Of a stretch of DNA of 64,000 nucleotides, positions 26,453 to 38,121 are shown piece after piece (positions within the stretch are counted from its first letter, which is position 1; each line of letters starts with the position of its first letter). The position numbers and the translations under genes are program-made. Origin of the DNA: a virus (lineage: Duplodnaviria; Caudoviricetes); IMG/VR virus record IMGVR_UViG_3300028797_000108, positions 64,001-128,000 of that record, one strand, 5' to 3'. The notes under the pieces are model-generated. The model made no database searches. It worked only from the letters and a program-made list of their open reading frames with translations, and had not been told where the DNA came from.

Positions 26453-26536
26453 GGCCTTATGGCGGAACTGGTAGACGCTGGGGACTTAAAATCCCCTGCC
26501 AGTAATGGCGTCCGGGTTCGAGTCCCGGTGGGGCCA
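26453..26536 (+). tRNA. trnL: tRNA-Leu(TAA)
   Basis: GGGGA-CT-TAA-AA-TCCCC, long variable arm. Confidence 0.9.
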
Positions 26537-26545
26537 TACATTTTT

Positions 26546-26677: not shown

Positions 26678-26687
26678 TAGCTTTTAT

Positions 26688-26761
26688 ACCCTAGTAGCTC
26701 AACTGGATAGAGCAACGCTCTTCTAAAGCGTGGGTTGCAGGTTCGAGTCCTGCCTAGGGTA
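26688..26761 (+). tRNA. trnR: tRNA-Arg(TCT)
   Basis: ACGCT-CT-TCT-AA-AGCGT. Confidence 0.9.
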
Positions 26762-26768
26762 CTTCTTT

Positions 26769-26840
26769 GAGGGTAAAGCTTTGACGGTGAAGCAATAGAC
26801 TTTTAATCTATGGAACCGGCTTCGAGCTCCGGTACCCTCA
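26769..26840 (+). tRNA. trnK: tRNA-Lys(TTT)
   Basis: ATAGA-CT-TTT-AA-TCTAT; atypical T arm. Confidence 0.8.
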
Positions 26841-26850
26841 CTAAATTTCT

Positions 26851-26921
26851 TGCCGGTTCGTATAGCGGTAGTATAGGGGACTTTGAATCCTTTGGCGTTG
26901 GTCCGACTCCAGCACCGGCAG
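26851..26921 (+). tRNA. trnQ: tRNA-Gln(TTG)
   Basis: GGGGA-CT-TTG-AA-TCCTT. Confidence 0.85.
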
Positions 26922-26985
26922 CTATAGATCACGAGGTGTGCAAATCCCTCAAGCAGAGTGAACTGCGATAACAAGTTAAACTCAA

Positions 26986-27058
26986 CGGCAGATAGCACAA
27001 TGGTTAGTGCAGCGGACTCATAACCCGCCGGTTGAAGGTTCAAATCCTTCTTTGCCGA
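26986..27058 (+). tRNA. tRNA(CAT), Met or Ile2
   Basis: GCGGA-CT-CAT-AA-CCCGC. Confidence 0.85.
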
Positions 27059-27119
27059 TAGTTAATAAACTGTTGATAAAACTGTGCATTAACTGTATAA
27101 TTCAAATTTTGAACTATTC

Positions 27120-27145
27120 ATGGCGCCCTAAAAAGCGCCATTTTT
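27120..27145 (+). terminator. Rho-independent terminator
   Basis: ATGGCGC-loop-GCGCCAT-TTTT. Confidence 0.7.
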
Positions 27146-27286
27146 CTATCTCAAAACGATGAAATTTAAGCAGTTATATTACAGTAATTTACAGTAAACC
27201 GCGTAGATTGTGTTGATTTAAGCACTGTTGATATATTGTCAATTTGATCATAAATCACTGTAAATAAAAAATTTACATTTCTACCA

Positions 27287-27315
27287 TTGACGGACTTCCA
27301 GATAGTTGTTATATT
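27287..27315 (+). promoter_or_regulatory. Early sigma70-type promoter
   Basis: TTGACG-17-TATATT-TTACTCGTAAA. Confidence 0.8.
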
Positions 27316-27351
27316 TTACTCGTAAATTGAAAACAACAAGGAAACTGGAAT

Positions 27352-27543
27352 ATGAACAAACAAGAACTGATCCGCGCGCTGATTGAAACCGCCGAAAAGG
27401 AAGGCTCAAACATTCATTTTGACCATCAATTTGGGTGGGACGGTTTTGTTGATTCCAACGGCGAATTCTGGGCTACCGACGGTCACTCCGTCTCCGAAAT
27501 TTGTCGCAGAATTTTCAGTGCCTGTCAGGAAGAATTCATCTAA
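27352..27543 (+). CDS. Hypothetical protein
   Basis: First gene after promoter. Confidence 0.7.
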   Translation: MNKQELIRALIETAEKEGSNIHFDHQFGWDGFVDSNGEFWATDGHSVSEICRRIFSACQEEFI

Positions 27544-27555
27544 GGAGAACCGACA

Positions 27556-28128
27556 ATGATTTTGAAAATCAACTACGCTCGTGCCCTTTACGTTGAATCT
27601 GACACGATCTATCCGGAAGGTCCCAACAGCGACCACACCTATCAAACGGTGCGCTGCGACGGCCGCATCCGCAAGACCTGTTGGTTCCGCCTCGGTGAAG
27701 CATTCTTGAAGTTCCCCGAACATCGCGCGGTCACCCGCAAGGAAATCGCCGCAGTGATGGAACATACCTTCAGCCCTGACGGCACAAAGGATTGGGGCAC
27801 GGGTATCTGGAGTCCGGATATGTGGACGACCTTCGTTCATGATGGCTTCATCAAGAAGTTTCAGAACGGAAATCGCTTCACCTATATGCTCTCCGATTGG
27901 GGTCGCAGGACTACCATCGCAGCGCAGCGCGACTTCAGCAAGGAATTCACGAAGGCAACGCTTCGCATTCAGGCTATGCCCAAATCGGTTGAAGAAGCCA
28001 AGCAGCTCGTCAAGATCAAGTTTGACAAGCACGAGAATTACCTCGCCCGCAAGGCCGCAGGTTTTCCGAAAAAGAAGGCTCGCCTCGCAAAGGCTGCCCT
28101 CCGCGCTGAAGCAAAAATTTTGAAATAA
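27556..28128 (+). CDS. Hypothetical basic protein (possible winged-helix)
   Basis: RBS AAGGAG; TRKEIA...GFIKK..Y.LSDWG. Confidence 0.7.
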   Translation: MILKINYARALYVESDTIYPEGPNSDHTYQTVRCDGRIRKTCWFRLGEAFLKFPEHRAVTRKEIAAVMEHTFSPDGTKDWGTGIWSPDMWTTFVHDGFIKKFQNGNRFTYMLSDWGRRTTIAAQRDFSKEFTKATLRIQAMPKSVEEAKQLVKIKFDKHENYLARKAAGFPKKKARLAKAALRAEAKILK

Positions 28129-28153
28129 AATGAAAAAAATTCAAAATTTACCC

Positions 28154-28182
28154 TTGACAGTTCAAAATTAAATTGTTATATT
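28154..28182 (+). promoter_or_regulatory. Early sigma70-type promoter driving a non-coding stretch
   Basis: TTGACA-17-TATATT. Confidence 0.75.
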
Positions 28183-28496
28183 TTAACTGTTGAAATTGAA
28201 CAACTACTGCCTCTGGTTCAACGCCGCGGGCCACGCAGGACAACAAAAACCCACGCGGTTCACCTACTGCCCATCCTAGGAAGGGCGACAACTTGGAGAT
28301 TGAAATGAAACTTTTGACGTGTATGTAGAACGGTTTGAGCTTTCATCGTATCAGCTCATCAATGATTGGGGCGATGAAGGCGAGCGGATTTTGATCCCAC
28401 CGTTGCGGTAGGCCTAGATGAGCGTTGCTCGAGTTGCAGAAGATCCTCGGAAAAATCTTCACGGGCGTCACCCGGAAAAAATTGACAAAAATACCC

Positions 28497-28525
28497 TTGA
28501 CAGTTTCAGAAAACTATTTTATATT
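28497..28525 (+). promoter_or_regulatory. Early promoter of the main tRNA array
   Basis: TTGACA-17-TATATT; late TATAAATA also at 28612-28619. Confidence 0.75.
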
Positions 28526-28637
28526 TGATACTGTCAAAACAAAATCAATCCCGAGCGGATTTGATTGCAGCTTGAAATAGCGGAAACACAAGATTTTGAA
28601 AAGTTGTTGTTTATAAATATGAATAACAACTGAACAT

Positions 28638-28710
28638 GCCTCGGTGGCGCAATTGGTAGCGCAGCGGACTCTTAATCCGTGGGTTGAAGGTTCGAGTCCT
28701 TCCCGGGGCA
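28638..28710 (+). tRNA. trnK: tRNA-Lys(CTT)
   Basis: GCGGA-CT-CTT-AA-TCCGT. Confidence 0.9.
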
Positions 28711-28910
28711 CTACTGGACAAGATCGCGTCAAACTGAAGAGGATTGTTAGTAGTAGCGAAGTACAAGCTATGAACAGGGTTGCTAGTAGGTTTGATGGCA
28801 ACGCGTGCAGACCCCACCGATGAGGAGGGGTGAACTGCAGAGGAACCCGACCTGGGGGCGCATCGGGGTGAGTCTTGACAATTTGATGAAAGCGAATCAT
28901 CGCAAGTCGT

Positions 28911-28986
28911 TGGATGTAGTTATAAATGGAAAAACAGGGTCCGCTTCGGCGAGCTCATAATTGTGGGTCCGACTCCCACCGTCCGT
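28911..28986 (+). ncRNA. tRNA-like RNA with a UUCG tetraloop in place of the anticodon loop
   Basis: TGGATG/CGTCCG acceptor, T-arm GTGGG-TCCGACT-CCCAC, CGC-TTCG-GCG. Confidence 0.55.
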
Positions 28987-29117
28987 AAAACGATTCTGTG
29001 AGTAGTCAAAGGGCTAATCTAAAGCTTGCCTCCAATGCGAAAAAAGCTGAGCGTGCCACCGGCGAGCGATGGTGGGGTTACAGCATAACCACAAAGCTGC
29101 ACAATGCAAGATCGCCT

Positions 29118-29198
29118 TCGGCAGATAGTTCAAGCGTAGAACATCGGGTTGTCCCCGAAGATTACTGGGTAAAAGCCAAGGCTACCAGAAGTCACCGA
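29118..29198 (+). ncRNA. tRNA-like RNA with 5-nt anticodon loop and altered T arm
   Basis: GTTC-AAGCGTA-GAAC D arm; TCGGG-TTGTC-CCCGA. Confidence 0.45.
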
Positions 29199-29326
29199 TT
29201 GTTGCATATCCTGCTTGGGTCGCGGTTGGTCCCGTGAGACTCGCTCAGGCTTGGTTGAAGGTTCAACAAGTAAAAGAGGACTTAGGCTTGCTTGGCGCCT
29301 TAAGCCTAACCAGCACAAGCATTATT

Positions 29327-29400
29327 GGGGTCATAGCTCAATTTGGTAGAGCACTAGCTTTGCAAGCTAGGGGTTCCGGGTTCGAGTCCCGGTGGCTCCA
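29327..29400 (+). tRNA. trnA: tRNA-Ala(TGC)
   Basis: CTAGC-TT-TGC-AA-GCTAG, G3:U70. Confidence 0.92.
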
Positions 29401-29411
29401 CGAAACATTTC

Positions 29412-29773
29412 GGGCTCCCTCCGCCATTTGCAAGTAAGACAAAGAAGGCACGACAAACCGAAAGTAGTTACATTGGTTGCTCTTTGTGGCTGCGATCTTG
29501 GTCCTTCCTAATGAAAGTACCATACAAAGGAGTAGGTAGATCCGTGAAGGAATCGCTCTAAGCTGGAGTAGATCGGATCGGGAATCGCTGAAACGACCGA
29601 AGATGCCTATAACAGAAAGGTTGATGGTGTGCAGCTAGCACTGTCGCTGAAGTAAATGTGCGGCATTGGAAGGATGGAAACGGTGAGGCGGTATACTGAT
29701 GGGACAGGGATAAGCTCCTGACTTTTAGGTATATGTGGTAGCCACTGTGGAGGTTCAAATCCTTCGGTGCCCA
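29412..29773 (+). ncRNA. About 360-nt structured RNA ending in a T-arm/acceptor-like module
   Basis: GGGCTCC ... GGAGG-TTCAAAT-CCTTC-GGTGCCC-A-CTA. Confidence 0.5.
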
Positions 29774-29784
29774 CTAATTATTAT

Positions 29785-29858
29785 TGGATTGTAGCTCAGT
29801 TTGGTAGAGCGGTCGGCTGTTAACCGATTGGTCGCAGGTTCGAGTCCTGCCTTTCCAG
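29785..29858 (+). tRNA. trnN: tRNA-Asn(GTT)
   Basis: GTCGG-CT-GTT-AA-CCGAT; two acceptor mismatches. Confidence 0.85.
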
Positions 29859-29885
29859 CTAAACGCCGATTAGGCAACATTTTCT

Positions 29886-29961
29886 GTGCTATAGCCGTCC
29901 GCAGGAATCGGACGCCGGCAGTCGCCGGAAATCAGTGGTTCAATTCCACTCGTAGCCACCA
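29886..29961 (+). ncRNA. tRNA-like RNA with 4-nt anticodon loop and encoded CCA
   Basis: CCGGC-AGTC-GCCGG; AGTGG-TTCAATT-CCACT; ends GTAGCCACCA. Confidence 0.55.
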
Positions 29962-30075
29962 AAGGAAATGGCTTGGTTAAGATAACCTCAACATCAAGTA
30001 GCCGAAAGGTGTGGGACACTTGACGATCAGACAACTCGAGTAATGCTGAACGCTTGAGTCCCAGCGCTTTTGATT

Positions 30076-30148
30076 GCCTGTATAGCTCAGCTGGTAGAGC
30101 AGCGGCTTTGTAACCCGCAGGTCGGGGGTTCGGATCCCTCTGCAGGCG
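30076..30148 (+). tRNA. trnT: tRNA-Thr(TGT)
   Basis: GCGGC-TT-TGT-AA-CCCGC. Confidence 0.88.
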
Positions 30149-30286
30149 CTAATGGTTGAATGTTGGGTATCCTATAGGAATAAACAATAGCCTATAGGTG
30201 GACCGAGCCCCGTTCTGTAATGGGATGGGTGCCCGCATTTCACAATGCCGGTAGTCCGGTGGTGGCGGAACCACCTTAAAAACTTG

Positions 30287-30361
30287 CGGGCTGTAGCTCA
30301 GTCTGGCTAGAGCACTTGATTTGGGATCAAGGGGTCGTGGGTTCAAATCCCGCCAGCCCGA
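30287..30361 (+). tRNA. trnP: tRNA-Pro(TGG)
   Basis: CTTGA-TT-TGG-GA-TCAAG. Confidence 0.92.
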
Positions 30362-30370
30362 TAACATTAT

Positions 30371-30443
30371 TGCGGAGTGGAGCAGTGGTTAGCTCGGCAG
30401 CCTCATAAGCTGAAGGTCGTGGGTTCAAGTCCCACCTCCGCTA
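30371..30443 (+). tRNA. trnM: tRNA-Met(CAT), initiator-like
   Basis: 1:72 mismatch, GGAGCAG..TAGCTCG D arm. Confidence 0.85.
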
Positions 30444-30455
30444 CTAAAAGTATTT

Positions 30456-30541
30456 GCCAGTGCGCCGACGTTGGAGAGTCGGACCGGACTGTAAATCCGG
30501 GGCCCTCACGGGCTTTGGTGGTTCAAATCCACCCTCTGGCA
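30456..30541 (+). tRNA. trnY: tRNA-Tyr(GTA)
   Basis: CCGGA-CT-GTA-AA-TCCGG, long variable arm. Confidence 0.88.
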
Positions 30542-30555
30542 CGAAAAGAATTTTT

Positions 30556-30627
30556 GGCTCCTTGGTCTAGAGGTTAGGACACCACATTTTCAATGTGAGA
30601 ACCCGGGTTCGAGTCCCGGAGGAGCTA
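30556..30627 (+). tRNA. trnE: tRNA-Glu(TTC)
   Basis: CACA-TT-TTC-AA-TGTG. Confidence 0.88.
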
Positions 30628-30635
30628 CTAAGCCT

Positions 30636-30708
30636 CGGATGGCATCGTTTGATTATGGCAAGACGCCCACGCGAAGTGGGAAAGAGCGGTCCGAATCCGC
30701 TTGCCTGA
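30636..30708 (+). ncRNA. tRNA-like RNA with 5-nt anticodon loop
   Basis: D arm GTTT/AGAC; CCCAC-GCGAA-GTGGG; AGCGG-TCCGAAT-CCGCT. Confidence 0.6.
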
Positions 30709-30786
30709 ACAGTGAGTACACGGTCTGGGGCTAGGAGCAAAAAGCTGAGAGACGTCGTAGGTGTATTGCTCCGGTACTTTTGAATT

Positions 30787-30857
30787 GGGTTCATAGTTTA
30801 ATGGATGAATACCGGCTTGTCACGCCGGCGGTACGGGATCGTGACCCGTTGGACCCG
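30787..30857 (+). tRNA. trnD: tRNA-Asp(GTC)
   Basis: CCGGC-TT-GTC-AC-GCCGG; atypical T loop. Confidence 0.82.
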
Positions 30858-30864
30858 CTAAAAA

Positions 30865-31082
30865 TTGCTGTTTGACAAATCAGGTGAACTGCAGATAGCC
30901 TGAGGCGTTGATTGCGGTTTGAGGTCCGGCGACGGCTGGATGCAAAGGAATAGCCGGAAGCGCGGTTCTAGAGGAAGTTCCTCAGGAGCCGGTGAAGGGA
31001 GGCCCCAAAAGGGCATTAAAACAACGGCGGGAAGGCACCCTCTAAAGAGCTCTGAATATGCAGCCCTCAGAGCAAACAGCAA
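30865..31082 (+). ncRNA. About 218-nt structured RNA with a 10-bp terminal stem
   Basis: TTGCTGTTTG pairs with CAAACAGCAA; fills the gap between two tRNAs. Confidence 0.55.
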
Positions 31083-31086
31083 CTAT

Positions 31087-31160
31087 CGGCATGCATAACG
31101 ATTGGTTCGTTTGCCACTCTGATAAGGTGGAGATTGAAGGTTCAACTCCTTCCGTGCCGA
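31087..31160 (+). tRNA. trnI: tRNA-Ile(GAT)
   Basis: CCACT-CT-GAT-AA-GGTGG; atypical D arm. Confidence 0.8.
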
Positions 31161-31163
31161 CTA

Positions 31164-31223
31164 AAGATACTTACAGCAAAGTTATCAACATTCTTTTTTT
31201 GGTAGAATCGCAAAGGTATCTTG
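31164..31223 (+). ncRNA. Stem-ACAGCAA element copy 1 (no tRNA cargo)
   Basis: AAGATACTT-ACAGCAAA...AGGTATCTTG. Confidence 0.65.
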
Positions 31224-31228
31224 ATTAT

Positions 31229-31301
31229 GCCGCGGTAGCCTAGGTGGTCATGGCGCGGGACTGAAAATCCTGAGATGTTGGTCCGATTCCAACCCTCGGC
31301 A
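31229..31301 (+). tRNA. trnF: tRNA-Phe(GAA)
   Basis: CGGGA-CT-GAA-AA-TCCTG. Confidence 0.88.
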
Positions 31302-31314
31302 CTAAAACAATTAT

Positions 31315-31386
31315 AGCGGGGAGAGGATGGTTCCTCCGCCGGTCTCATAAGCCGTGCTTCTGCAGGTTCGAGTCCTGCCGCCGCTA
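31315..31386 (+). tRNA. trnM: tRNA-Met(CAT)
   Basis: CGGT-CT-CAT-AA-GCCG; short D loop. Confidence 0.78.
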
Positions 31387-31390
31387 CTAT

Positions 31391-31474
31391 GGCCTACTGG
31401 CGGAACTGGTAGACGCGCCTGACTTAGGATCAGGTGCCCGTGAGGGCGTGGGAGTTCGAGTCTCTCGTAGGTCA
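31391..31474 (+). tRNA. trnL: tRNA-Leu(TAG)
   Basis: CCTGA-CT-TAG-GA-TCAGG. Confidence 0.9.
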
Positions 31475-31494
31475 CTAAAACACAAGGAGTTATT

Positions 31495-31701
31495 ATGACT
31501 GAACAAGAAGCAAAAAGAGCAAAAGAAATTGAAGCAATGCTGAATTGGAATTTGCAGCGATCCCAGGCCTTGGGTGAATTCCCTTTGCCCGTCACTTGTG
31601 GTATCACTCAGATCTTTAACTGCGTTCAGTCTGAAAGGGCGGCTGCTTGGAAGCGCAAGAATGATATTGCGAACGGGCGAGTCCCTGATTCGGTTCCGTA
31701 G
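31495..31701 (+). CDS. Small protein inside the tRNA array, 3' end overlapping tRNA-Arg
   Basis: RBS AAGGAG; 68 aa. Confidence 0.6.
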   Translation: MTEQEAKRAKEIEAMLNWNLQRSQALGEFPLPVTCGITQIFNCVQSERAAAWKRKNDIANGRVPDSVP

Positions 31702-31767
31702 CTCAGTCGGATTTAGAGCGCCACGCTACGAACGTGGAGGTCCCAGGTTCGAGTCCTGGCGGAACTA
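31692..31767 (+). tRNA. trnR: tRNA-Arg(ACG)
   Basis: CCACG-CT-ACG-AA-CGTGG. Confidence 0.9.
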
Positions 31768-31824
31768 CTAAAGCGGTTTGGGTGGAGGTACGTCGCCGTT
31801 ATAAATATCTCAAATCGCTTTTAT

Positions 31825-31908
31825 GCTTACATGAATCCGAGCGGCAAAGGACGCAGTCTGCAAAACTGCGGGCGAAAGCCTTCGCAGGTTCGAGTCCTGC
31901 TGTAAGCT
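31825..31908 (+). tRNA. trnC: tRNA-Cys(GCA) with long variable arm
   Basis: GCAGT-CT-GCA-AA-ACTGC, U73, GGC-GAAA-GCC arm. Confidence 0.8.
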
Positions 31909-31914
31909 CTAATA

Positions 31915-32040
31915 AAGATAGAGACAGCAAAATTAAATGCTATCCCAAGGCTGAAACGAGGGGTCCGAATCCCCTCATGGAGGTTGGTCTTCCATTCGTC
32001 TAGTGGTCTAGGACTCAGCCAAAGCAAAAAATCTATCTTG
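31915..32040 (+). ncRNA. Stem-ACAGCAA element copy 2 with circularly permuted tRNA domain (YrlA-like)
   Basis: GGCTGA, T arm, ATGGAGG-TTGGT-CTTCCAT, D arm, TCAGCC. Confidence 0.75.
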
Positions 32041-32044
32041 TCTT

Positions 32045-32128
32045 GGAGGGTTAGCCTAACGGTAAGGCAGCGGTCTTGAAAACCGCCGCGGGGAAACTCG
32101 CTTGTAGGTTCAAATCCTGCACCCTCCG
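32045..32128 (+). tRNA. trnS: tRNA-Ser(TGA)
   Basis: GCGGT-CT-TGA-AA-ACCGC. Confidence 0.9.
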
Positions 32129-32142
32129 CTAAAACATTTTAA

Positions 32143-32214
32143 GTCCCATTGGTGTAGTGGTAGCACGTCTCCTTGCCATGGAGAAGGTCGCCGGTCCGAA
32201 TCCGGCATGGGGCT
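32143..32214 (+). tRNA. trnG: tRNA-Gly(GCC)
   Basis: TCTCC-TT-GCC-AT-GGAGA. Confidence 0.88.
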
Positions 32215-32218
32215 CTAT

Positions 32219-32345
32219 AGATACGCACAGCAATGTTAAAGCATGGTCTGATAAACCCCGTGTTGCAGGTTCGAGTCCTGTCGGGTCGCTGAAAGGTGAC
32301 CTGTAGCTCAATCGGTAGAGCAGGAAAAGCAAAAAACGTATCTTG
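32219..32345 (+). ncRNA. Stem-ACAGCAA element copy 3 with circularly permuted tRNA domain
   Basis: GGT-CTGATAA-ACC, T arm, CGGGTCGCT-GAAA-GGTGACCTG, D arm. Confidence 0.75.
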
Positions 32346-32350
32346 TATAA

Positions 32351-32421
32351 GTCCTATTGGTGTAGTGGTAACATTTCTGCCTTCCAAGCAGGTGTGGCGA
32401 GTTCGAGTCTCGCATAGGGCT
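32351..32421 (+). tRNA. trnG: tRNA-Gly(TCC)
   Basis: CTGC-CT-TCC-AA-GCAG. Confidence 0.88.
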
Positions 32422-32424
32422 CTA

Positions 32425-32547
32425 AAGGTGCTCTCAGCTAAATTTTCATAGGAAAATTCTAGAGTAGTATAATTGGTTATTACACCCTCCGATAAAAGAG
32501 GGAGATCCTGGTTCGAGTCCAGGCGCCAGACCCCGAAAGGCATCTTG
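32425..32547 (+). ncRNA. Stem-(A/T)CAGC element copy 4 with degenerate non-permuted tRNA domain
   Basis: AAGGTGCT...GGCATCTTG; 8-nt anticodon loop, broken acceptor. Confidence 0.6.
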
Positions 32548-32555
32548 ATCTTACC

Positions 32556-32627
32556 CCCGTGGTAGTGTAATGGTTAGCACACGAGCTTGTGGCGCTCGTA
32601 GTTCGGATTCGAGTTCCGGCCTTGGGA
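32556..32627 (+). tRNA. trnH: tRNA-His(GTG) without encoded G-1, A73
   Basis: CGAGC-TT-GTG-GC-GCTCG. Confidence 0.8.
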
Positions 32628-32630
32628 TAT

Positions 32631-32704
32631 ACCTCCGTGGCGCAGTGGTTTAGCGCGGCTGCCCTACAAGCAGCGGGTCGTAGGTTCAACTCCTACCGGG
32701 GGTA
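32631..32704 (+). tRNA. trnV: tRNA-Val(TAC)
   Basis: GCTGC-CC-TAC-AA-GCAGC (C33). Confidence 0.85.
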
Positions 32705-32708
32705 CTAT

Positions 32709-32780
32709 TGGGGCGTGGTGTAATTGGTAACACGCATGACTCTGACTCATGAATTCTTGGTTCAAGTCCAGGCGCCCCAA
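32709..32780 (+). tRNA. trnQ: tRNA-Gln(CTG)
   Basis: CATGA-CT-CTG-AC-TCATG. Confidence 0.9.
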
Positions 32781-32860
32781 CTATGGTGACCCAAAGCCAA
32801 AACAAATTGGGTCGTTTCTAGTGAGTAGCCTTGTAGCTAGATCTGTAATTAAAGGCCCTT

Positions 32861-32933
32861 AGGGATATAGTTCAATTGGTAGAACGGCGGACTCCAAACC
32901 CGCGTGTTAGAGGTTCAAATCCTTTTGTCCCTG
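32861..32933 (+). tRNA. trnW: tRNA-Trp(CCA)
   Basis: GCGGA-CT-CCA-AA-CCCGC. Confidence 0.88.
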
Positions 32934-32937
32934 TTAT

Positions 32938-33021
32938 GGCCGAGTGGCGGAATTGGTAGACGCGGCGGACTCAAAATCCGCTGACCGCGAGGTCGTGAGA
33001 GTTCAAGTCTCTCCTTGGCCA
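32938..33021 (+). tRNA. trnL: tRNA-Leu(CAA)
   Basis: GCGGA-CT-CAA-AA-TCCGC. Confidence 0.92.
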
Positions 33022-33025
33022 CTAT

Positions 33026-33143
33026 AGATACCAACAGCAAAAATGCGTCTTGCTCCTCCTGGGGTTATAGCTCAATTGGTAGAGCACCGCCGACATACTG
33101 GCGGGGGTTGCGGGTTCGAGTCCCGATATGCAATGGTATCTTG
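33026..33143 (+). ncRNA. Stem-ACAGCAA element copy 5 with degenerate tRNA domain
   Basis: AGATACCA-ACAGCAAA...TGGTATCTTG; D and T arms intact, 8-nt anticodon loop, no acceptor 3' strand. Confidence 0.7.
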
Positions 33144-33148
33144 ACTTT

Positions 33149-33234
33149 GGAGGAATACACTAATTGGTTAAGTGGCCACCCTGCTAAGGTGGTGTCCCGA
33201 AAGGGGCGTGAAGGTTCAAGTCCTTCTTCCTCCG
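33149..33234 (+). tRNA. trnS: tRNA-Ser(GCT)
   Basis: CCACC-CT-GCT-AA-GGTGG. Confidence 0.9.
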
Positions 33235-33263
33235 TATTGACATTTTTTGACAATTTCTTGTTA

Positions 33264-33294
33264 GCGCCCGAATTGATGAAATTCGGGCGTTTTT
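33264..33294 (+). terminator. Terminator of the tRNA array
   Basis: GCGCCCGAATT-GATGA-AATTCGGGCGT-TTTT. Confidence 0.8.
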
Positions 33295-33345
33295 GTTATG
33301 TAAACTTTATTTTACATATTTTTTCATATTTTGCGGATTATTTAG

Positions 33346-33374
33346 TTGACAGGTGGCGTGGAAATTGTTATATT
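33346..33374 (+). promoter_or_regulatory. Early sigma70-type promoter
   Basis: TTGACA-17-TATATT-TTACTCGTAAA. Confidence 0.8.
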
Positions 33375-33409
33375 TTACTCGTAAACAAAACAACTGAAGG
33401 ATTTGAACT

Positions 33410-33886
33410 ATGAGTATTGATTCCAAACGCCGCTCCGATATCGCCTCCACCCCGTGGGAAAAGCTTGAATATGGCCGTGACCTTACCGATTGTCTTCGCA
33501 ATGACTACCCCGAAAATTATTGTTCTGTTGAAGACCGAAATGAATGGAACGGTTTTGTTTGCGGAAAAGATAAGATGCCGAAGCGCGTCCTGATCCGTGA
33601 CTCCTTCATGCGCCGTATGCCTGACGGTCACTGGGTTGAACAGCGTAAGGATTGGGAAGCCCTTGAACTCCTTGATTTTGAAATGAAGGACGCCTACATG
33701 ATGGGCAAAACTCCTGAAGGAGAAGAAATTTGGGTGAACCGCACCGTTCACGTCGCAGCCCGTGACTGGGACGAAGCAACGAGAATTTACAACTGGCACA
33801 AGGATCGCTGGATGAGCTGCGGCTTGATTTCTGGCTGGATGAATTTCTGGACTGACCGTGCCATCAACGCTGAAAAGAAGGCTTAA
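33410..33886 (+). CDS. Hypothetical protein
   Basis: RBS AAGGA after promoter. Confidence 0.75.
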   Translation: MSIDSKRRSDIASTPWEKLEYGRDLTDCLRNDYPENYCSVEDRNEWNGFVCGKDKMPKRVLIRDSFMRRMPDGHWVEQRKDWEALELLDFEMKDAYMMGKTPEGEEIWVNRTVHVAARDWDEATRIYNWHKDRWMSCGLISGWMNFWTDRAINAEKKA

Positions 33887-33888
33887 TC

Positions 33889-34107
33889 ATGAAGCGAACC
33901 GTTTACATCCCCATTGAAATTGAATGCAACGACGAATACCCGTTAACCGACAGCGAAGCCTGCGCTATTGCCAGCTCAATGGCTGAGGATTGCCGCGACG
34001 GTTTCTTCAGCAGCGACAATATGTGGGATCGTGCGAGCGAGACCCTCGGCGAATACGGCATGATTGATTTTGGTTACACAATTAAGAACCCCGTCAGCAA
34101 CATTTAA
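33889..34107 (+). CDS. Hypothetical acidic protein
   Basis: Operon continuity. Confidence 0.65.
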   Translation: MKRTVYIPIEIECNDEYPLTDSEACAIASSMAEDCRDGFFSSDNMWDRASETLGEYGMIDFGYTIKNPVSNI

Positions 34108-34124
34108 CAAAAGGACATACCACT

Positions 34125-34574
34125 ATGGCTTACAAAGAAGTTGTTTCCAAACGTCGCACCGTCACCTTTGATCTTGGCGCTGAAAAGGTGACCATGACCC
34201 TCCGTCGCTTTGAAGGCAAGGTCCGTCAGCGCGACCCGGTGACCTTTAAGAACCTGGGCTGGGGTAAGTCCGGTTACACTTGCGTCAAGTGCGACCACTT
34301 CCCGCATGCTGACTGGCGCCCCTACATTGACTTCGGCACCAAGATGGCTGACTGTTCGTTGGACGGCTGGGAAGCTGAAAAGCCTGAGTGGCCGTTGATT
34401 GACCAGCTCGCTGAAAGCATGATCTTTGAATATAAGGGCTGGACCGATGATGAAGGTTACATCTCGGTTGAAACGGCACTGGCAGACATTGCCAAGTTCA
34501 ATGAAAACCTTGTCAAGGAAATCGCCCGCAAGGAACTTGCTGAAGCCGGCGAAATCCTGAAGGAGATCAAGTAA
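34125..34574 (+). CDS. Hypothetical protein
   Basis: RBS AAGGA. Confidence 0.75.
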   Translation: MAYKEVVSKRRTVTFDLGAEKVTMTLRRFEGKVRQRDPVTFKNLGWGKSGYTCVKCDHFPHADWRPYIDFGTKMADCSLDGWEAEKPEWPLIDQLAESMIFEYKGWTDDEGYISVETALADIAKFNENLVKEIARKELAEAGEILKEIK

Positions 34575-34653
34575 TGAAGTAATTTACATTCAGTGCTTAA
34601 ATTTCATCAAAACCGCAGTTGTGTAAACTTTCATATTTTTCCTACAATTACCC

Positions 34654-34682
34654 TTGCCACGCGTCCGAATAGTTGTTATATT
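34654..34682 (+). promoter_or_regulatory. Early sigma70-type promoter
   Basis: TTGCCA-17-TATATT-TTACTCGTAA. Confidence 0.75.
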
Positions 34683-34716
34683 TTACTCGTAATCAAAAAC
34701 AACAAAAGGAAATCCA

Positions 34717-34848
34717 ATGGAATTTAATGAGTTTGAATCTTGGTCCATCCGCCGCCGTCGCGCCATTCGCGCCGAAAGAATTGAAAAGATCAAGGCTTGG
34801 GCTGGCCTCGCACTCATTTTCGCTGCCATGATTTTTGTAGGAGACTAA
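34717..34848 (+). CDS. Small membrane peptide, 43 aa
   Basis: RBS AAGGA; basic stretch then hydrophobic C-terminus. Confidence 0.55.
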   Translation: MEFNEFESWSIRRRRAIRAERIEKIKAWAGLALIFAAMIFVGD

Positions 34849-34849
34849 C

Positions 34850-35299
34850 ATGCTTTACACTGCGACAAAAGGTGAACATCAGGGCGAAGCCCACAGCGTT
34901 GCCGAATGGCATTTGATTATCCGTCAGGTTACGGACAAGACTGCGAAAGGCACTCATGTGGCCGTCTGGAAGAAGGGCGTTGCCGATGGCTTGTATGTCA
35001 AAATGTCCGGCAAGGGCACGGGCGCACCCCGCAAGGCTGCCGTCAAGCAGGCCGCTGCACCGGCGCCCGCAAAAGATCAAACCTGGCACCCGCACGGCTC
35101 TGACATCAAGCCTGTCAAATGGTGCGTGAGCGATCCTACGGATACCCGCAAGTGGGAGTACGTCAAGGAAGAATTTGATACGGAAGCAGCTCGTGATAAG
35201 CGACTCGCCGAAGTTCTCGCTGACAAAGAAAAGTATGATTATCGCTCCAAGGGTTGGGGCGACAAGAAGTTCAACCTCTGCTACTGGAAGGTAAAATAA
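34850..35299 (+). CDS. Hypothetical protein
   Basis: RBS AGGAG. Confidence 0.75.
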   Translation: MLYTATKGEHQGEAHSVAEWHLIIRQVTDKTAKGTHVAVWKKGVADGLYVKMSGKGTGAPRKAAVKQAAAPAPAKDQTWHPHGSDIKPVKWCVSDPTDTRKWEYVKEEFDTEAARDKRLAEVLADKEKYDYRSKGWGDKKFNLCYWKVK

Positions 35300-35535
35300 T
35301 GAATGAAGCTGAAATGAAATTTGTCTCCGACGCTATTGCCAAGTATAACTTGCAGAGCACTGAAAATCACCATACCATTCAGATTGTTGATTTTACGGTA
35401 TATCCGGAAGAACAGGCAAACGGCGCACAGATGGCGCTGAAGTTCAAGGAACACCGCTGGAAGGGTGATGTGGAAACAACCCTTGAATACAGAAATTTTG
35501 AACAGTTGAAAAATTGGTTCAATTTCCATACTTAA
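35299..35535 (+). CDS. Hypothetical protein
   Basis: TAATG coupling. Confidence 0.65.
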   Translation: MNEAEMKFVSDAIAKYNLQSTENHHTIQIVDFTVYPEEQANGAQMALKFKEHRWKGDVETTLEYRNFEQLKNWFNFHT

Positions 35536-35689
35536 TTTGAGGAAATTTAAGCAGTTTTATTACAGATTTTTGCAGTTATCTTACGAGAATATGATGGATG
35601 GCGCAGTGCTGTATAATTACCAATTGAACACAAAATTACAGTGTAAATGAAAGTTTACAGAAAAAAATCATTTTTTCCTTTACAATTGG

Positions 35690-35718
35690 TTGACAGCTCA
35701 GCGATAAATTGTTATATT
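35690..35718 (+). promoter_or_regulatory. Early sigma70-type promoter
   Basis: TTGACA-17-TATATT-TTACTCGTAAA. Confidence 0.8.
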
Positions 35719-35763
35719 TTACTCGTAAACAAAACAAACAACAATTTTTCAAAGGATTGAACT

Positions 35764-36033
35764 ATGGCTAACAACACCGCTGCCCTCAAGAACCTCGCAA
35801 AGAACCTCAAGGCCTCCGCTGTCAAGGTTCCGAAAAGCGTCAAGCTTTGCCCGAAGGTCTCCAAGCTTCCTCGCACCTGGTGCGGCGGTCACAGCGATCT
35901 GCCGACTGACACGAAGTGGGAAAAGCTTCGCTACGGCATCTTTGACGCCATGAAGAAGGACAAGGGTGACAACCGCGCCCTCTGCGCAGCGGTCGCTCAG
36001 ATGGCCCACAACAAGAAGTTCGGTATCCGTTAA
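35764..36033 (+). CDS. Small Lys-rich protein
   Basis: RBS AAGGA. Confidence 0.7.
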   Translation: MANNTAALKNLAKNLKASAVKVPKSVKLCPKVSKLPRTWCGGHSDLPTDTKWEKLRYGIFDAMKKDKGDNRALCAAVAQMAHNKKFGIR

Positions 36034-36058
36034 TCACTTTTCAAAAAGGAAACATCTT

Positions 36059-36634
36059 ATGAGAGCAAATTACAAGGAATTCATCAACGCCAACCGTTCC
36101 AAGCTCACCCACGCAGAAAAGCGGGCCATGAAGCAGGCCTCCTCGCACATCCATCAGTTGAACAGCGACATCAAGCTCGCCAAGCTTATTCGCCGTATTG
36201 AAGATCTGCCGGAACTCAGCGAACTTCAGGCTGAAAAGCGCGACACTCAGGCCCACCTGACTCGTTTGATTGCGGGTATTCACGACCGCCTCACCCGTGC
36301 AGAAAAGCGCAAGCTTGAAGCAAAGCGCCCCGCACCGAAGACCGAGGCTAATCGCCCCCGCTTGACAAAGGCATTCGTTGAAGCAGCAGCTGCAGCCGGT
36401 GACCCGTGGGCACAGGTTTTGATGGCAGTCGCCGATCCTGATACCACTTGTTGCCGTGAGGTGCCGGTGGCAAAGATCAACCCCAAGAAGATCGCCGTGC
36501 TGAAGTCCGGTTCCTTCACTGTCAACCGCAAAACCGCTGTGGAACTGTTCAATAAGCTCCATGAGCTCATTCAAAACAAGGATTGGATTGAACATCCGGA
36601 AAACCGAGCTGTTGTGGATTTCAAATCTGTGTAA
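36059..36634 (+). CDS. Hypothetical basic protein
   Basis: RBS AAGGA; start MRANY. Confidence 0.7.
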   Translation: MRANYKEFINANRSKLTHAEKRAMKQASSHIHQLNSDIKLAKLIRRIEDLPELSELQAEKRDTQAHLTRLIAGIHDRLTRAEKRKLEAKRPAPKTEANRPRLTKAFVEAAAAAGDPWAQVLMAVADPDTTCCREVPVAKINPKKIAVLKSGSFTVNRKTAVELFNKLHELIQNKDWIEHPENRAVVDFKSV

Positions 36635-36673
36635 AAACTCGGAAAATTTGTGAAAAAAACTCACAAATATCCC

Positions 36674-36702
36674 TTGACAAGATCAACAAACTTTTTTATA
36701 TT
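36674..36702 (+). promoter_or_regulatory. Early sigma70-type promoter
   Basis: TTGACA-17-TATATT. Confidence 0.75.
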
Positions 36703-36777
36703 ATACTCGTTGCCTGATTGAAACAGCACTGACGCCAATCAACTGGCAACATTCACTTCAAACCGAAAGGTAAAACT

Positions 36778-37494
36778 ATGGCTAACAAGAACGCTAAGGC
36801 TATCGCTCAGGCCTCTAAGGTGAGCAAGAACGCTGCAACCGCTACCGCTAAGGCTGCTGCCCCGAAGTCCAAGATTGAACTGTTTGGTGCTGCACTCGTG
36901 AACTTTGTTCGCTCCAACTTCGCTTGTGTTGAACACAAGGAAGGCTCCCACGACTATTTCCTCCGTGGCGTTGACCTCGGCAACGGGGTGAAGATTGACT
37001 ATCGCCTCAGCATCGCTGAAGCTCCGGCTAAGGAAGGCAAGCGTGCCTCCCACAAGCGTGAGCTCTACCGTATTGACGCTGAAGGCAAGGAACGCCTCGT
37101 TCAGTTCGGTACCTTCAAGAAGAAGTACCTCTACCCGCTCATGGGCATGGTCGTGGCCGGCAAGCCGTCCAAGGTCTCCAAGATGGTGATTGACAAGGAA
37201 CTGACCGGCAAGATCGCCGACGCTATCCGCGCCGACCGCAAGAGCTTCAAGCTCGCTGACGGTGTCCTCTCCGGTAAGGTGAAGGATGTGGGTTCCTTCC
37301 GCATGGTTGAAACCACAAAGACCCTCAAGAACGGCAAGACCCAGCTTGTCCGCCAGTTGTTCATTGACGGCGTGCTCAAGCTTGAAGGCGGCCAGCTTGG
37401 CAAGATCAAGAACGCCTTCACCAAGGTCGGTGCCCACCGCACCATGAAGGATATTCTGGCCGACGCTAACGACGCCGTGTCCGACCTCATCTAA
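36778..37494 (+). CDS. Lys/Ala-rich protein with strongly biased codon usage (possible nucleic-acid-binding)
   Basis: Own promoter and terminator. Confidence 0.75.
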   Translation: MANKNAKAIAQASKVSKNAATATAKAAAPKSKIELFGAALVNFVRSNFACVEHKEGSHDYFLRGVDLGNGVKIDYRLSIAEAPAKEGKRASHKRELYRIDAEGKERLVQFGTFKKKYLYPLMGMVVAGKPSKVSKMVIDKELTGKIADAIRADRKSFKLADGVLSGKVKDVGSFRMVETTKTLKNGKTQLVRQLFIDGVLKLEGGQLGKIKNAFTKVGAHRTMKDILADANDAVSDLI

Positions 37495-37510
37495 GGGATT
37501 TACCTCCCCA

Positions 37511-37557
37511 GTGGGGTGCCGGGTTTTTGATTGTTGTTACCGGCGCCCCACTTTTTA
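37511..37557 (+). terminator. Rho-independent terminator
   Basis: GTGGGGTGCCGG...CCGGCGCCCCAC-TTTTT. Confidence 0.7.
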
Positions 37558-37587
37558 TTTCTTTTTAACAGCACAGAGGTAATCAAA

Positions 37588-38121
37588 ATGAATCTTACTG
37601 CTCCAGTAGTTATCACAGGCCAGGATGGCAACCCGCAAAAGACTGAAGTTGCTTTCCGCGTAAAGTTTATCCACTCCCCGTTCGTCCAGAAGGCTGGTGC
37701 CGACCAGGGTACTCCCGATCCTAAGGCTACCCGTTCAACGACTTGCACGATTGCAGTTGTTTCCCCGGGTCCCATCAACTCCAACTCCGAAAAGTTTGAG
37801 GCAGAAGGCAAGGACACCGTGTTCCTGACCCCGCTCGTTGAAGCCAAGTCAATTTGTAAGGGCCGTGATGTGGTTCTATTCTCTGCTGCTTATGGCCGCA
37901 AGAATTCCCTTGAAAAGGCTCTGCGTGTTCTCGTTGACCGCACGAAGTATACCACTGAAAACGCCCATGTTCTTGAAGGTCTTGAAGGCTGCCCGTTTGG
38001 GTTCACCGACGAAACCGTAAAGGCGTTCATCAAGGCGCTCCGCGAGCGTTATCCTCGTGGTTGGGATGTGGCTGCAAACCTCAGCAAAACCGCCCCGACG
38101 GTCTACCCTTTTCAGGGTTAA
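37588..38121 (+). CDS. Hypothetical protein
   Basis: RBS GAGG; C...D..F....GRKNSL.KAL pattern typical of small phage proteins. Confidence 0.7.
   Translation: MNLTAPVVITGQDGNPQKTEVAFRVKFIHSPFVQKAGADQGTPDPKATRSTTCTIAVVSPGPINSNSEKFEAEGKDTVFLTPLVEAKSICKGRDVVLFSAAYGRKNSLEKALRVLVDRTKYTTENAHVLEGLEGCPFGFTDETVKAFIKALRERYPRGWDVAANLSKTAPTVYPFQG

What the first reader, a model, noticed from the sequence alone, without database searches (positions are those of the whole stretch)
32219..32345. Second permuted tRNA retaining an Ile-like GAT loop, acceptor capped by a GAAA tetraloop
GGT-CT-GAT-AA-ACC precedes a canonical T arm; the acceptor strands are joined as CGGGTCGCT-GAAA-GGTGACCTG, followed by a canonical D arm GCTC-AATCGGTA-GAGC. 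The GNRA cap suggests selection for a closed, unchargeable mimic that still presents an anticodon loop, a plausible anticodon-nuclease decoy (inference).
Basis: partly seen in the sequence, partly recalled or inferred. Interest (0 to 1): 0.72.

Follow-up and report, generated by a model that had tools for sequence, protein, structure and literature searches.

The report
Phage tRNA-shaped Y-like RNA
This stretch encodes a small RNA that is a whole tRNA with its ends moved and its acceptor end sealed, held by a conserved "handle"; in many other phages the same handle lies just upstream of a Ro60-like ring-protein gene, so it is most likely that protein's RNA partner, not a decoding tRNA.

Summary
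Bases 32219-32345 encode a complete, circularly permuted tRNA-Ile(GAU)-like RNA with a sealed acceptor stem. ARAGORN calls it a 76-nt tRNA once the permutation is undone.

It is one of five elements in this tRNA array that share a handle: a 7-bp terminal stem (AGA+4 covarying pairs), CAGCAA, and a 3' UCUUG. My covariance model found 40 distinct permuted relatives in other phage arrays, with strong covariation.

The GAAA cap is not conserved, and the anticodon triplet changes between close relatives.

Starting from the protein alone, the handle lies on the same strand as, and mostly within 500 nt upstream of, a DUF2828/DUF7788 gene. Pfam's TROVE model misses this protein, but its predicted fold matches Ro60 over its full length.

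The element is therefore best read as a YrlA-type Y RNA of a divergent phage Ro60 particle. It fails YrlA's own membership tests: 42.8 bits against a cut-off of 69, and no GNCGAA motif.

Caveat: the partner gene is absent from this 139-kb record, which is only 37% complete. No binding or expression data exist.

This scan has met the same family before on other DNA (notes in at least 256 genomes). I found no published description.

The parts
32219..32225 (+). Handle, 5' strand of the 7-bp closing stem P1 (AGATACG); AGA is invariant in the family and the inner positions covary
   Evidence: Pairs with 32337-32343. Family pair counts are; partner types include AGACAGT/ACTGTCT and AGATTCC/GGAATCT.
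32228..32233 (+). Handle motif CAGCAA, 2 nt after P1, at the start of the large internal loop; it sits where the Ro-binding CGAA motif sits in known Y RNAs
   Evidence: Invariant in alignments A2 and A4. The ACAGCAA..TTAAA pattern occurs twice in the window against 0.12 expected. Motif position compared with PMC4201824 and PMC12135203.
32234..32244 (+). Variable linker
   Evidence: 0 of 13 columns identical to the nearest relative L021.
32245..32259 (+). Anticodon-arm mimic: GGT / loop CTGATAA / ACC, then CC (tRNA positions 29-43)
   Evidence: Among 32 relatives with 7-nt loops, U33 is kept in 26, R37 in 31 and A38 in 30, while positions 34-36 vary freely.
32260..32281 (+). Variable loop (GTGTT) and T arm GCAGG-TTCGAGT-CCTGT
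   Evidence: T helix 99% paired with 4 covarying pairs. 23 of 24 columns identical to L021.
32282..32303 (+). Sealed acceptor: 3' strand CGGGTCG, then CT-GAAA-GG (2 extra pairs plus tetraloop), then 5' strand TGACCTG
   Evidence: Acceptor helix 95.7% paired, with double changes in 7 of 7 pairs. The cap sequence is not conserved.
32304..32324 (+). TA (positions 8-9), D arm GCTC-AATCGGTA-GAGC, A26, then GG (27-28) pairing with CC 32258-32259
   Evidence: The 27-28/42-43 pairs covary (CG, GC, UA and AU types).
32325..32336 (+). A-rich 3' side of the internal loop (AAAAGCAAAAAA)
   Evidence: Shared almost exactly with the copy at 31916-32040; A-rich across the family.
32337..32345 (+). Handle, 3' strand of P1 (CGTATCT) plus the conserved TG overhang
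   Evidence: TCTTG is invariant in A2. The next tRNA (Gly-UCC) starts at 32351.
31165..31223 (+). Sister element A: handle with only a short hairpin insert
   Evidence: R1 model 37.1 bits.
31916..32040 (+). Sister element B: handle plus a permuted tRNA-Gly(CCC)-like core, broken at the 5' side of the anticodon loop
   Evidence: R1 84.2 bits; ARAGORN calls Gly(ccc) after de-permutation; fold z-score -4.45.
32426..32547 (+). Sister element D: divergent handle (AGGTGCT.. CAGCTA .. GGCATCTTG) around a normal-order tRNA-like unit with an 8-nt anticodon loop
   Evidence: ARAGORN reports 'tRNA-???' (ataa) at 32458-32533.
33026..33143 (+). Sister element E: handle around a normal-order tRNA-like unit that lacks an acceptor stem
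   Evidence: Rfam tRNA 30.7 bits, model positions 6-65 only.

Best explanation
The element is a non-decoding small RNA of the Y RNA kind, closest to the tRNA-mimicking YrlA type. It is transcribed within the phage's polycistronic tRNA array. Inferred: it is released by the same end-processing that frees the neighbouring tRNAs. Its two ends pair into a 7-bp stem that opens into a large internal loop carrying CAGCAA. This 'handle' is the conserved part of the family. Inferred: it is the docking site for a ring-shaped Ro60-like protein of the DUF2828/DUF7788 family, in the way the CGAA-bearing stem and loop of known Y RNAs dock Ro60. Shown by sequence and covariation: the distal part is a full L-shaped tRNA look-alike with an anticodon arm, T arm, D arm and an acceptor stem sealed into a 9-bp hairpin. 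Inferred by analogy with Rsr-YrlA-PNPase and phiLo Ro60-Yrl-PNPase: it stabilises the RNA and presents a tRNA-like surface to host tRNA-binding or RNA-decay enzymes, so that the particle redirects host RNA turnover or repair during infection. The Ile-like triplet is probably incidental, because selection keeps the loop's shape and not its three letters.
For: (1) Family membership: the handle occurs five times in this array. Model R1 finds 42 confident permuted relatives (40 distinct) in 21 sources, many of them not used in training, for example L027 2180-2310 at 118.7 bits. (2) Structure: 91.9% of pair cells are paired against 62% in shuffles, with 25 of 28 pairs changed on both sides. (3) YrlA-like topology: Rfam YrlA matches over its full model at E 4e-8 here and at 31-43 bits in every permuted relative tested. 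(4) Partner gene: an ORF family of about 500 aa recurs beside the RNAs. It matches PHROG 850 'RNA-binding protein' and Pfam DUF2828 plus DUF7788, and has an invariant MIDAS motif. Its AF2 model (pLDDT 76) matches Ro60/TROVE structures over the full length at Foldseek ranks 1-13 (9kop, 9l5y, 1yvr, 9nen, 2nvo; E 9e-8 to 4e-5). (5) Reverse test from the protein alone, on 79 new loci: all 59 RNA hits lie on the gene's strand, in 44 loci. A strict pattern gives 84 frames on the gene strand against 1 on the other, and 49 end within 500 nt upstream of the start codon. (6) All 6 related records that are at least 82% complete carry the gene. (7) Published precedent: phiLo Ro60 binds two upstream Y-like RNAs that have a 5'-3' stem and a large bulge with CGAA, and it recruits host PNPase (PMC12135203). 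YrlA is a tRNA mimic bound by Rsr (PMC4201824). (8) Not a decoder: in the nearest relative the T arm is 23 of 24 identical, but the triplet is UUU instead of GAU. The core resembles this array's tRNA-Arg(UCU) most, not its tRNA-Ile.
Against: The Ro60-like gene is absent from this phage's 139-kb record, by profile search, tblastn and an unfiltered six-frame HMM search. In complete relatives it lies 0.6-22 kb from the array, whereas here nothing lies within about 40 kb on either side. The record is only 37% complete, so this is not decisive, but the partner is unobserved for this genome. The element fails YrlA's curated score (42.8 against 69 bits) and lacks the GNCGAA(N)G motif. Protein-RNA binding rests on gene neighbourhood and a predicted fold, not on an experiment. 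No expression or end-mapping data could be obtained. R1's high score for this element is by construction, because it was in the training alignment, and P1 pairing was a selection criterion for the first set.
Confidence: 0.68

Rival explanations
1. Anticodon-nuclease decoy: the sealed tRNA look-alike soaks up host tRNA-cutting defence enzymes and so protects real tRNAs, with or without a Ro-like protein.
For: The loop keeps the anticodon-loop signature (U33, R37, A38) while the triplet changes fast among relatives: GAU, UUU, GUU, UGU, UGA, GCA, GAA, GUC and GUA. That is the pattern an arms race over anticodon-specific nucleases could give. From general knowledge, several of these triplets (UUU, GUN) are classic nuclease targets. 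Even short family members carry a bare anticodon-stem-loop mimic.
Against: No nuclease, cleavage or competition data exist. The idea explains neither the invariant handle nor its tight link to the Ro60-like gene. The same triplet variation is expected under neutral drift with selection on loop shape only. Mimic anticodons match an ordinary tRNA in the same locus in only 11 of 25 cases, which is inconclusive.
Confidence: 0.12
2. True permuted tRNA gene: the handle brings the ends together for cleavage and ligation, the cap is opened by RNase P and 3' trimming, and a functional tRNA-Ile results, as in Cyanidioschyzon merolae or Thermofilum.
For: After de-permutation, 25 of 40 cores are called full-length tRNAs. 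Caps imitate the 3' trailers of ordinary tRNAs in the same array, and at least 8 carry N-CCA after a 7-bp stem. A relative's Ro-like gene lies near RtcB ligase and CCA-adding enzyme genes.
Against: The flanks form a conserved 7-bp stem with an asymmetric loop, not a bulge-helix-bulge. 'Empty' handles and handles around normal-order tRNA-like units also exist, which a splicing signal does not explain. The anticodon differs between near-identical bodies, and the body does not match the cognate isoacceptor. Position 73 is a C paired inside a 9-bp hairpin. This array already has a tRNA-Ile(GAU). No RtcB gene is present in the record.
Confidence: 0.07
3. Two-piece tRNA-like RNA: RNase P cuts the cap, as in M. 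smegmatis YrlA. The two halves stay paired through the acceptor stem and handle and expose a 3' end that receives CCA, possibly with an amino acid. This would be a variant of the main reading.
For: A 7-bp acceptor stem is the main RNase P determinant, and M. smegmatis YrlA is cut and CCA-tailed in vivo (PMC4201824). N-CCA caps occur in the family.
Against: In this element and its closest relatives, pairing runs 2-3 bp beyond the 7-bp stem into a 3-5 nt loop with no CCA. That leaves no single-stranded leader for RNase P.
Confidence: 0.08
4. Passive punctuation: the stem-closed elements are only processing or stability spacers between tRNAs and have no function in trans.
For: Every copy sits exactly between two tRNAs, on the same strand as them.
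Against: A spacer needs no invariant CAGCAA, no complete covarying tRNA body, and no conserved position upstream of one protein family across hundreds of contigs.
Confidence: 0.05

Closest known systems
YrlA (Rfam RF02553), the tRNA-like Y RNA bound by bacterial and mycobacteriophage Rsr/Ro60 (Chen et al. 2014, PMC4201824)
   Same: A 5'-3' closing stem, a large internal loop with a short conserved motif on the 5' side, then T arm, closed acceptor-like stem and D arm in that permuted order. It is encoded in multiple copies near a Ro60-fold gene at family level. Rfam's model aligns over its full length (E 4e-8).
   Different: It scores 42.8 bits against a cut-off of 69. The motif is CAGCAA, not GNCGAA(N)G. 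The partner family is DUF2828/DUF7788, which Pfam TROVE does not detect. The mimic includes a complete anticodon arm, so it is a whole permuted tRNA. Copies are scattered through a tRNA array, and cargo modules are interchangeable: a bare hairpin, a permuted tRNA or a normal-order tRNA-like unit.
Yrl1/Yrl2 of Thermus phage phiLo with phage Ro60 (PMC12135203; PDB 9KOP, 9L5Y)
   Same: A phage-encoded Ro60-fold protein with Y-like RNA genes directly upstream, each with a terminal stem plus a large bulge that carries a short purine-rich motif. The phiLo protein is among the top two structural matches to the DUF2828 model.
   Different: The phiLo protein is a recognisable Ro60 homolog, and its RNAs carry CGAA and are not described as complete tRNA mimics. 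Here the protein is annotated only as DUF domains and the RNAs carry whole tRNA bodies.
Circularly permuted tRNA genes of Cyanidioschyzon merolae and Thermofilum pendens (from general knowledge; reviewed in PMC4090602)
   Same: The 3' part of the tRNA precedes the 5' part, joined by a short intervening sequence at the acceptor end. De-permutation yields a canonical cloverleaf.
   Different: Those genes mature through a bulge-helix-bulge site, splicing endonuclease and a circular intermediate into decoding tRNAs. Here the flanks are a conserved protein-type handle, the anticodon is not conserved, and no such pathway is known in bacteria.
Stable RNAs of unknown function in T-even and T5 tRNA clusters (T4 rnaC/rnaD species 1 and 2)
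   Same: Non-tRNA stable RNAs embedded in a phage tRNA cluster, with tRNA-like pieces.
   Different: T4 rnaC and rnaD lack the AGA..CAGCAA..TCTTG handle, and R1 gives only weak tRNA-junction hits on the T4 cluster.
Dictyostelium Class I RNAs (PMC7919456)
   Same: The architecture only: a short stem joining the 5' and 3' ends, a conserved 11-nt motif directly after the 5' strand, a variable remainder and a conserved 3' end of ...CUGU.
   Different: These are eukaryotic RNAs of 42-65 nt with no tRNA body. I could not verify sequence identity of the motif because the paper's text does not spell it out. This is a lead from earlier notes, not a result.

Membership tests
YrlA (Rfam RF02553) | T arm, closed acceptor-like stem and D arm in permuted order, closed by a 5'-3' stem | tested here: met
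   Rfam alignment over model positions 1-114; covariation.
YrlA (Rfam RF02553) | Score at or above Rfam's gathering cut-off (69 bits) | tested here: not met
   42.8 bits here; 31.6-39 bits in relatives.
YrlA (Rfam RF02553) | 5' GNCGAA(N0-1)G motif thought to contact Ro60 (PMC4201824) | tested here: not met
   The conserved motif at the equivalent place is CAGCAA.
YrlA (Rfam RF02553) | Encoded next to a Ro60/TROVE (PF05731) gene | tested here: not met
   No PF05731 match in the own record or in 10 related records.
YrlA (Rfam RF02553) | Bound by Ro60/Rsr in vivo | not testable with these tools
   Needs immunoprecipitation or EMSA.
Handle-framed phage Y-like RNAs next to DUF2828 Ro60-like genes (uncatalogued family defined here and in earlier notes of this scan) | 7-bp terminal stem starting AGA and ending TCT, with covarying inner pairs | tested here: met
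   32219-32225 pairs with 32337-32343.
Handle-framed phage Y-like RNAs next to DUF2828 Ro60-like genes (uncatalogued family defined here and in earlier notes of this scan) | CAGC(A/T)A 1-2 nt after the 5' strand, and a TG overhang after the 3' strand | tested here: met
   32228-32233 and 32344-32345.
Handle-framed phage Y-like RNAs next to DUF2828 Ro60-like genes (uncatalogued family defined here and in earlier notes of this scan) | Significant match to covariance model R1 | tested here: met
   119.6 bits. This element was in the training set; relatives outside it score up to 118.7 bits.
Handle-framed phage Y-like RNAs next to DUF2828 Ro60-like genes (uncatalogued family defined here and in earlier notes of this scan) | A DUF2828/DUF7788 Ro60-fold gene in the same genome, usually within 0.1-22 kb on the same strand | tested here: inconclusive
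   Absent from the 139-kb record, but the record is 37% complete. Present in 6 of 6 related records that are at least 82% complete.
Functional circularly permuted tRNA genes | 3' part before 5' part; a canonical tRNA after de-permutation | tested here: met
   ARAGORN calls tRNA-Ile(gat), 76 nt.
Functional circularly permuted tRNA genes | Bulge-helix-bulge or another known splice signal at the junction | tested here: not met
   By inspection the junction is flanked by a 7-bp stem and an asymmetric loop of about 19 nt against 12 nt. The same flanks also enclose non-permuted and empty cargo.
Functional circularly permuted tRNA genes | Anticodon and identity elements conserved among orthologues | tested here: not met
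   The same body carries GAU, UUU or GUU in close relatives, and the body is nearest to tRNA-Arg(UCU).

The most novel reading that the evidence does not exclude
DUF2828/DUF7788 proteins are a second, much more widespread Ro60-type ring family in phages, and apparently in cells. Their Y-like RNAs use one fixed handle to carry exchangeable cargo, from a bare anticodon stem-loop to a whole permuted tRNA whose triplet evolves freely. These RNAs would act as programmable tRNA look-alikes that bait or tether host tRNA-directed enzymes (anticodon nucleases, repair, modification or decay enzymes) during infection. Some members would be opened by RNase P to expose a genuine CCA end.
Probability: 0.25. 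Interest if true: 0.85.

Novelty: new variant of a known kind. Interest (0 to 1): 0.6.

Why it matters
Ro60-Y RNA particles are known in animals, in roughly 5% of bacteria and in a few phages, and the purpose of the tRNA-like module in bacterial Y RNAs is still unknown. This locus belongs to a family that seems to extend that system in three ways.

- The protein partner is a large family listed only as domains of unknown function: at least 537 viral contigs and more than 5,000 protein clusters.
- The handle motif is different from the known one.
- The RNA cargo is a complete tRNA mimic with an anticodon arm, present in several copies inside phage tRNA arrays.

If binding is confirmed, many gaps in phage tRNA clusters would be explained. 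A DUF family would gain a function. The modular cargo would give a direct experimental route to the question of what the tRNA-like part of Y RNAs is for. For genome annotation, it also shows that tRNA finders and Rfam both miss these genes.

Tried and rejected
- blastn of the region against 50,697 cultured phage records found no match.
- The Pfam TROVE (PF05731) search of the own record and 10 related records was negative. This first suggested there was no Ro partner, which was misleading because the partner is too divergent for that model.
- T4 rnaC and rnaD have no handle.
- Rfam at permissive thresholds, on the element, on 66 kb of related arrays and on short-form handles, gave nothing apart from sub-threshold YrlA.
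- GNRA-cap selection is rejected.
- Testing whether mimic anticodons duplicate or complement the ordinary tRNAs gave 11 of 25 shared in mostly partial loci, which is inconclusive.
- Synteny with a 272-kb relative, to place the missing Ro-like gene, showed only the GH10 gene and array fragments in common.
- RtcB and a CCA-adding enzyme are absent from the own record.
- Ten ORFs flanking the array have no Pfam or PHROG match.
- The Dictyostelium Class I motif could not be verified from the paper's text.
- The Burroughs and Aravind RNA-repair survey is not held, so I cannot say whether DUF2828 was linked to TROVE there.
- Complex prediction was not used because it does not take RNA chains.

Full report
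**Context.** The window is bases 64001-128000 of a 139,105-bp IMG/VR viral record that CheckV rates 37% complete. It holds a tRNA array of about 7 kb with 29 ARAGORN tRNAs, all on the + strand. The finding lies in the 135-nt gap between tRNA-Gly(GCC) and tRNA-Gly(UCC).

**Observation.** The layout has three further parts.
- CC 32258-32259 pairs with GG 32323-32324. Together with GGT/ACC this makes a 5-bp anticodon stem, so the tRNA is broken between positions 28 and 29.
- The outermost bases 32219-32225 and 32337-32343 pair as a 7-bp stem.
- CAGCAA follows the 5' strand after 2 nt, and TG follows the 3' strand.

RNAfold recovers the closing stem, T arm, sealed acceptor and D arm. Rfam's tRNA model and ARAGORN do not call the element. 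When the two parts are re-joined in tRNA order in a script, ARAGORN reports a 76-nt tRNA-Ile(GAU). The same treatment turns 25 of 40 relatives into tRNAs, against none in native order.

**A repeated handle.** The neighbouring element at 31916-32040 shares the flanks almost exactly but has an unrelated core. The cargo differs: a short hairpin, two permuted tRNAs, and two normal-order tRNA-like units that lack a proper acceptor stem. The handle is therefore the conserved unit, and the tRNA-like cargo varies.

**Relatives.** A 19-base pattern scan of IMG/VR returned 50 loci, about half of them true relatives in other phage tRNA arrays. A looser scan that checks pairing defined the frame:
- AGA plus four covarying positions,
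- a 1-2 nt spacer, then CAGCAA,
- the cargo,
- the matching four positions plus TCT, then TG.

I aligned 18 permuted members and wrote the structure by hand. 89.7% of pair cells are paired, against 65% in shuffles and 37-48% with slid partners. The closing-stem figure of 100% is circular, because pairing was a selection criterion; the other helices were not. Covariance model R1 then found 42 matches at E < 1e-6 (40 distinct), many outside the training set and several per array. On that set 91.9% of cells pair and 25 of 28 pairs change on both sides. The acceptor stem shows double changes at all 7 pairs.

**What is and is not conserved.**
- The nearest relative (L021) is identical at 23 of 24 columns in the T arm region, 15 of 18 in the D arm, and 16/18 and 23/28 in the handle. 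It is identical at only 2/7 and 3/7 in the acceptor strands, which still pair, at 1/8 in the cap and 0/13 in the linker.
- Cap loops range from 3 to 42 nt, and a GNRA is possible in only 4 of 40. The GAAA tetraloop is therefore incidental.
- In this element's subgroup, pairing continues 2-3 bp past the canonical 7 bp into a 3-5 nt loop. A sealed hairpin is kept there.
- Other subgroups instead carry N-CCA directly after a 7-bp stem. Caps generally imitate the 3' trailers of ordinary tRNAs in the same array. This suggests an origin from tandem tRNA junctions. It also raises the possibility that some members are opened by RNase P, as shown for M. smegmatis YrlA (PMC4201824).
- The anticodon-like loop keeps U33 (26 of 32), R37 (31 of 32) and A38 (30 of 32), but positions 34-36 vary freely. 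Near-identical bodies carry GAU, UUU or GUU.

**What it resembles.** At a permissive threshold Rfam gives one relevant hit: YrlA, full model, 42.8 bits, E 4e-8, below the cut-off of 69. All permuted relatives tested score 31-43 bits. YrlA is defined by a tRNA-like T/acceptor/D module, a 5' GNCGAA(N)G motif and a neighbouring Ro60 gene (PMC4201824). The first feature is met here and the second is not. A Pfam TROVE search found no Ro60 gene in the own record or in ten related records.

**The partner.** Clustering the ORFs around the RNAs showed one family of about 500 aa in ten loci, often directly beside a framed RNA.
- It matches PHROG 850 'RNA-binding protein' over its full length, and Pfam DUF2828 plus DUF7788. 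It has only sub-threshold hints of Pfam's Ro60 vWA domain, and an invariant D-x-S-x-S-M MIDAS block.
- An AlphaFold2 model (pLDDT 75.9, pTM 0.67) matches Ro60/TROVE structures over its full length at Foldseek ranks 1-13. These include Thermus phage phiLo Ro60, Xenopus and human Ro60, and D. radiodurans Rsr (E 9e-8 to 4e-5, TM 0.4-0.6).
- I then ran the reverse test. Starting from the protein profile alone, I fetched 80 loci out of at least 537 contigs that encode a relative. In the 79 new loci, all 59 R1 hits lie on the gene's strand, in 44 loci.
- A strict handle pattern gives 84 hits on that strand against 1 on the other in 1.5 Mb, and 49 end within 500 nt upstream of the start codon.
- The RNAs nearest the gene are mostly short forms, and many carry just the handle plus a 5-bp, 7-nt-loop anticodon-arm mimic.
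- All six related records that are at least 82% complete carry the gene. The three without it, including this one, are 37-67% complete.

This mirrors rsr-yrlA, and also the phiLo Ro60 gene with its two upstream Y-like RNAs, which have a terminal stem and a large bulge with CGAA and which recruit host PNPase (PMC12135203).

**Weak points.**
- The partner gene is not in this phage's 139 kb, even as a remnant. In complete relatives it lies 0.6-22 kb from the array.
- A 272-kb relative places the gene next to a GH10 xylanase, a CCA-adding enzyme and RtcB. That contig shares only the xylanase and array fragments with this record, and RtcB and the CCA-adding enzyme are also missing here.
- The whole block may lie in the unsampled 63% of the genome, or this phage may lack it.
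- Binding is inferred, not shown, and no RNA data could be obtained.

**Known or new.** Y RNAs, YrlA tRNA mimicry and phage Ro60 are all published. I found no paper that links DUF2828 to Ro60 or describes this handle, and Rfam has no matching family. One relevant survey is not held. After I had reached the Ro60-like link on my own, a look-up showed that this scan has met the same family many times on other DNA, with follow-ups reading it the same way. Those notes are not independent evidence. Their lead to Dictyostelium Class I RNAs could be confirmed only at the level of architecture.

**Verdict.** The element is a real, selected RNA gene. It is a YrlA-type tRNA mimic on a new handle and most likely the RNA partner of a divergent Ro60-like protein. 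I class it as a new variant of a known kind.

Noticed in passing
window 32458-32533 (inside element 32426-32547): ARAGORN's 'tRNA-???' with a 4-base anticodon (ataa) is a normal-order tRNA-like unit with an 8-nt anticodon loop. It is enclosed by a divergent copy of the same handle, so it is probably another Y-like RNA and not a frameshift-suppressor tRNA.
   Followed up: partly
window 31087-31161: The array's only ordinary tRNA-Ile(GAU) is atypical: Rfam scores it at 29.3 bits, only just above the cut-off. It is followed immediately by the short handle element at 31165-31223.
   Followed up: no
window 22461-40200: Ten ORFs of 158-385 aa flanking the tRNA array have no Pfam or PHROG match at all. 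A small ORF at about 31496-31690 sits inside the array.
   Followed up: partly
L143 3653-16464 (272-kb contig): In this relative the Ro60-like gene lies in a block with a His_Phos_1 phosphatase, a GH10 xylanase, a cytidylyltransferase-like gene, a CCA-adding enzyme (PolyA_pol) and RtcB ligase. This looks like an RNA-repair neighbourhood.
   Followed up: partly
G010:C1:77679-80056: The Ro60-like gene is split into two open frames (profile positions 11-118 and 112-496) separated by about 900 nt. This could be an intron or a homing-endonuclease insertion.
   Followed up: no
L017 366-1043; L043 1691-2215; L019 3183-3860: HNH and DUF559/NUMOD3-type homing-endonuclease-like genes recur inside or beside these tRNA and Y-like RNA arrays.
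   Followed up: no
L035 7441-7791 (- strand); L034 11497-11566: Related arrays also carry a phage tmRNA (107.8 bits) and a skipping-rope RNA (41.4 bits, above its cut-off).
   Followed up: no
L035, L039, L040, L021, L019, L024 acceptor caps: Caps of permuted members copy the 3' trailers of ordinary tRNAs in the same array. They are N-CCA plus a spacer where tRNAs encode CCA, and N-TA.. where they do not. This fits an origin from tandem tRNA junctions, shared end-processing, or both.
   Followed up: partly
L019 4219-4376: One permuted member has a 42-nt insertion in the acceptor cap that begins with ACCA. It is the longest cap seen.
   Followed up: no
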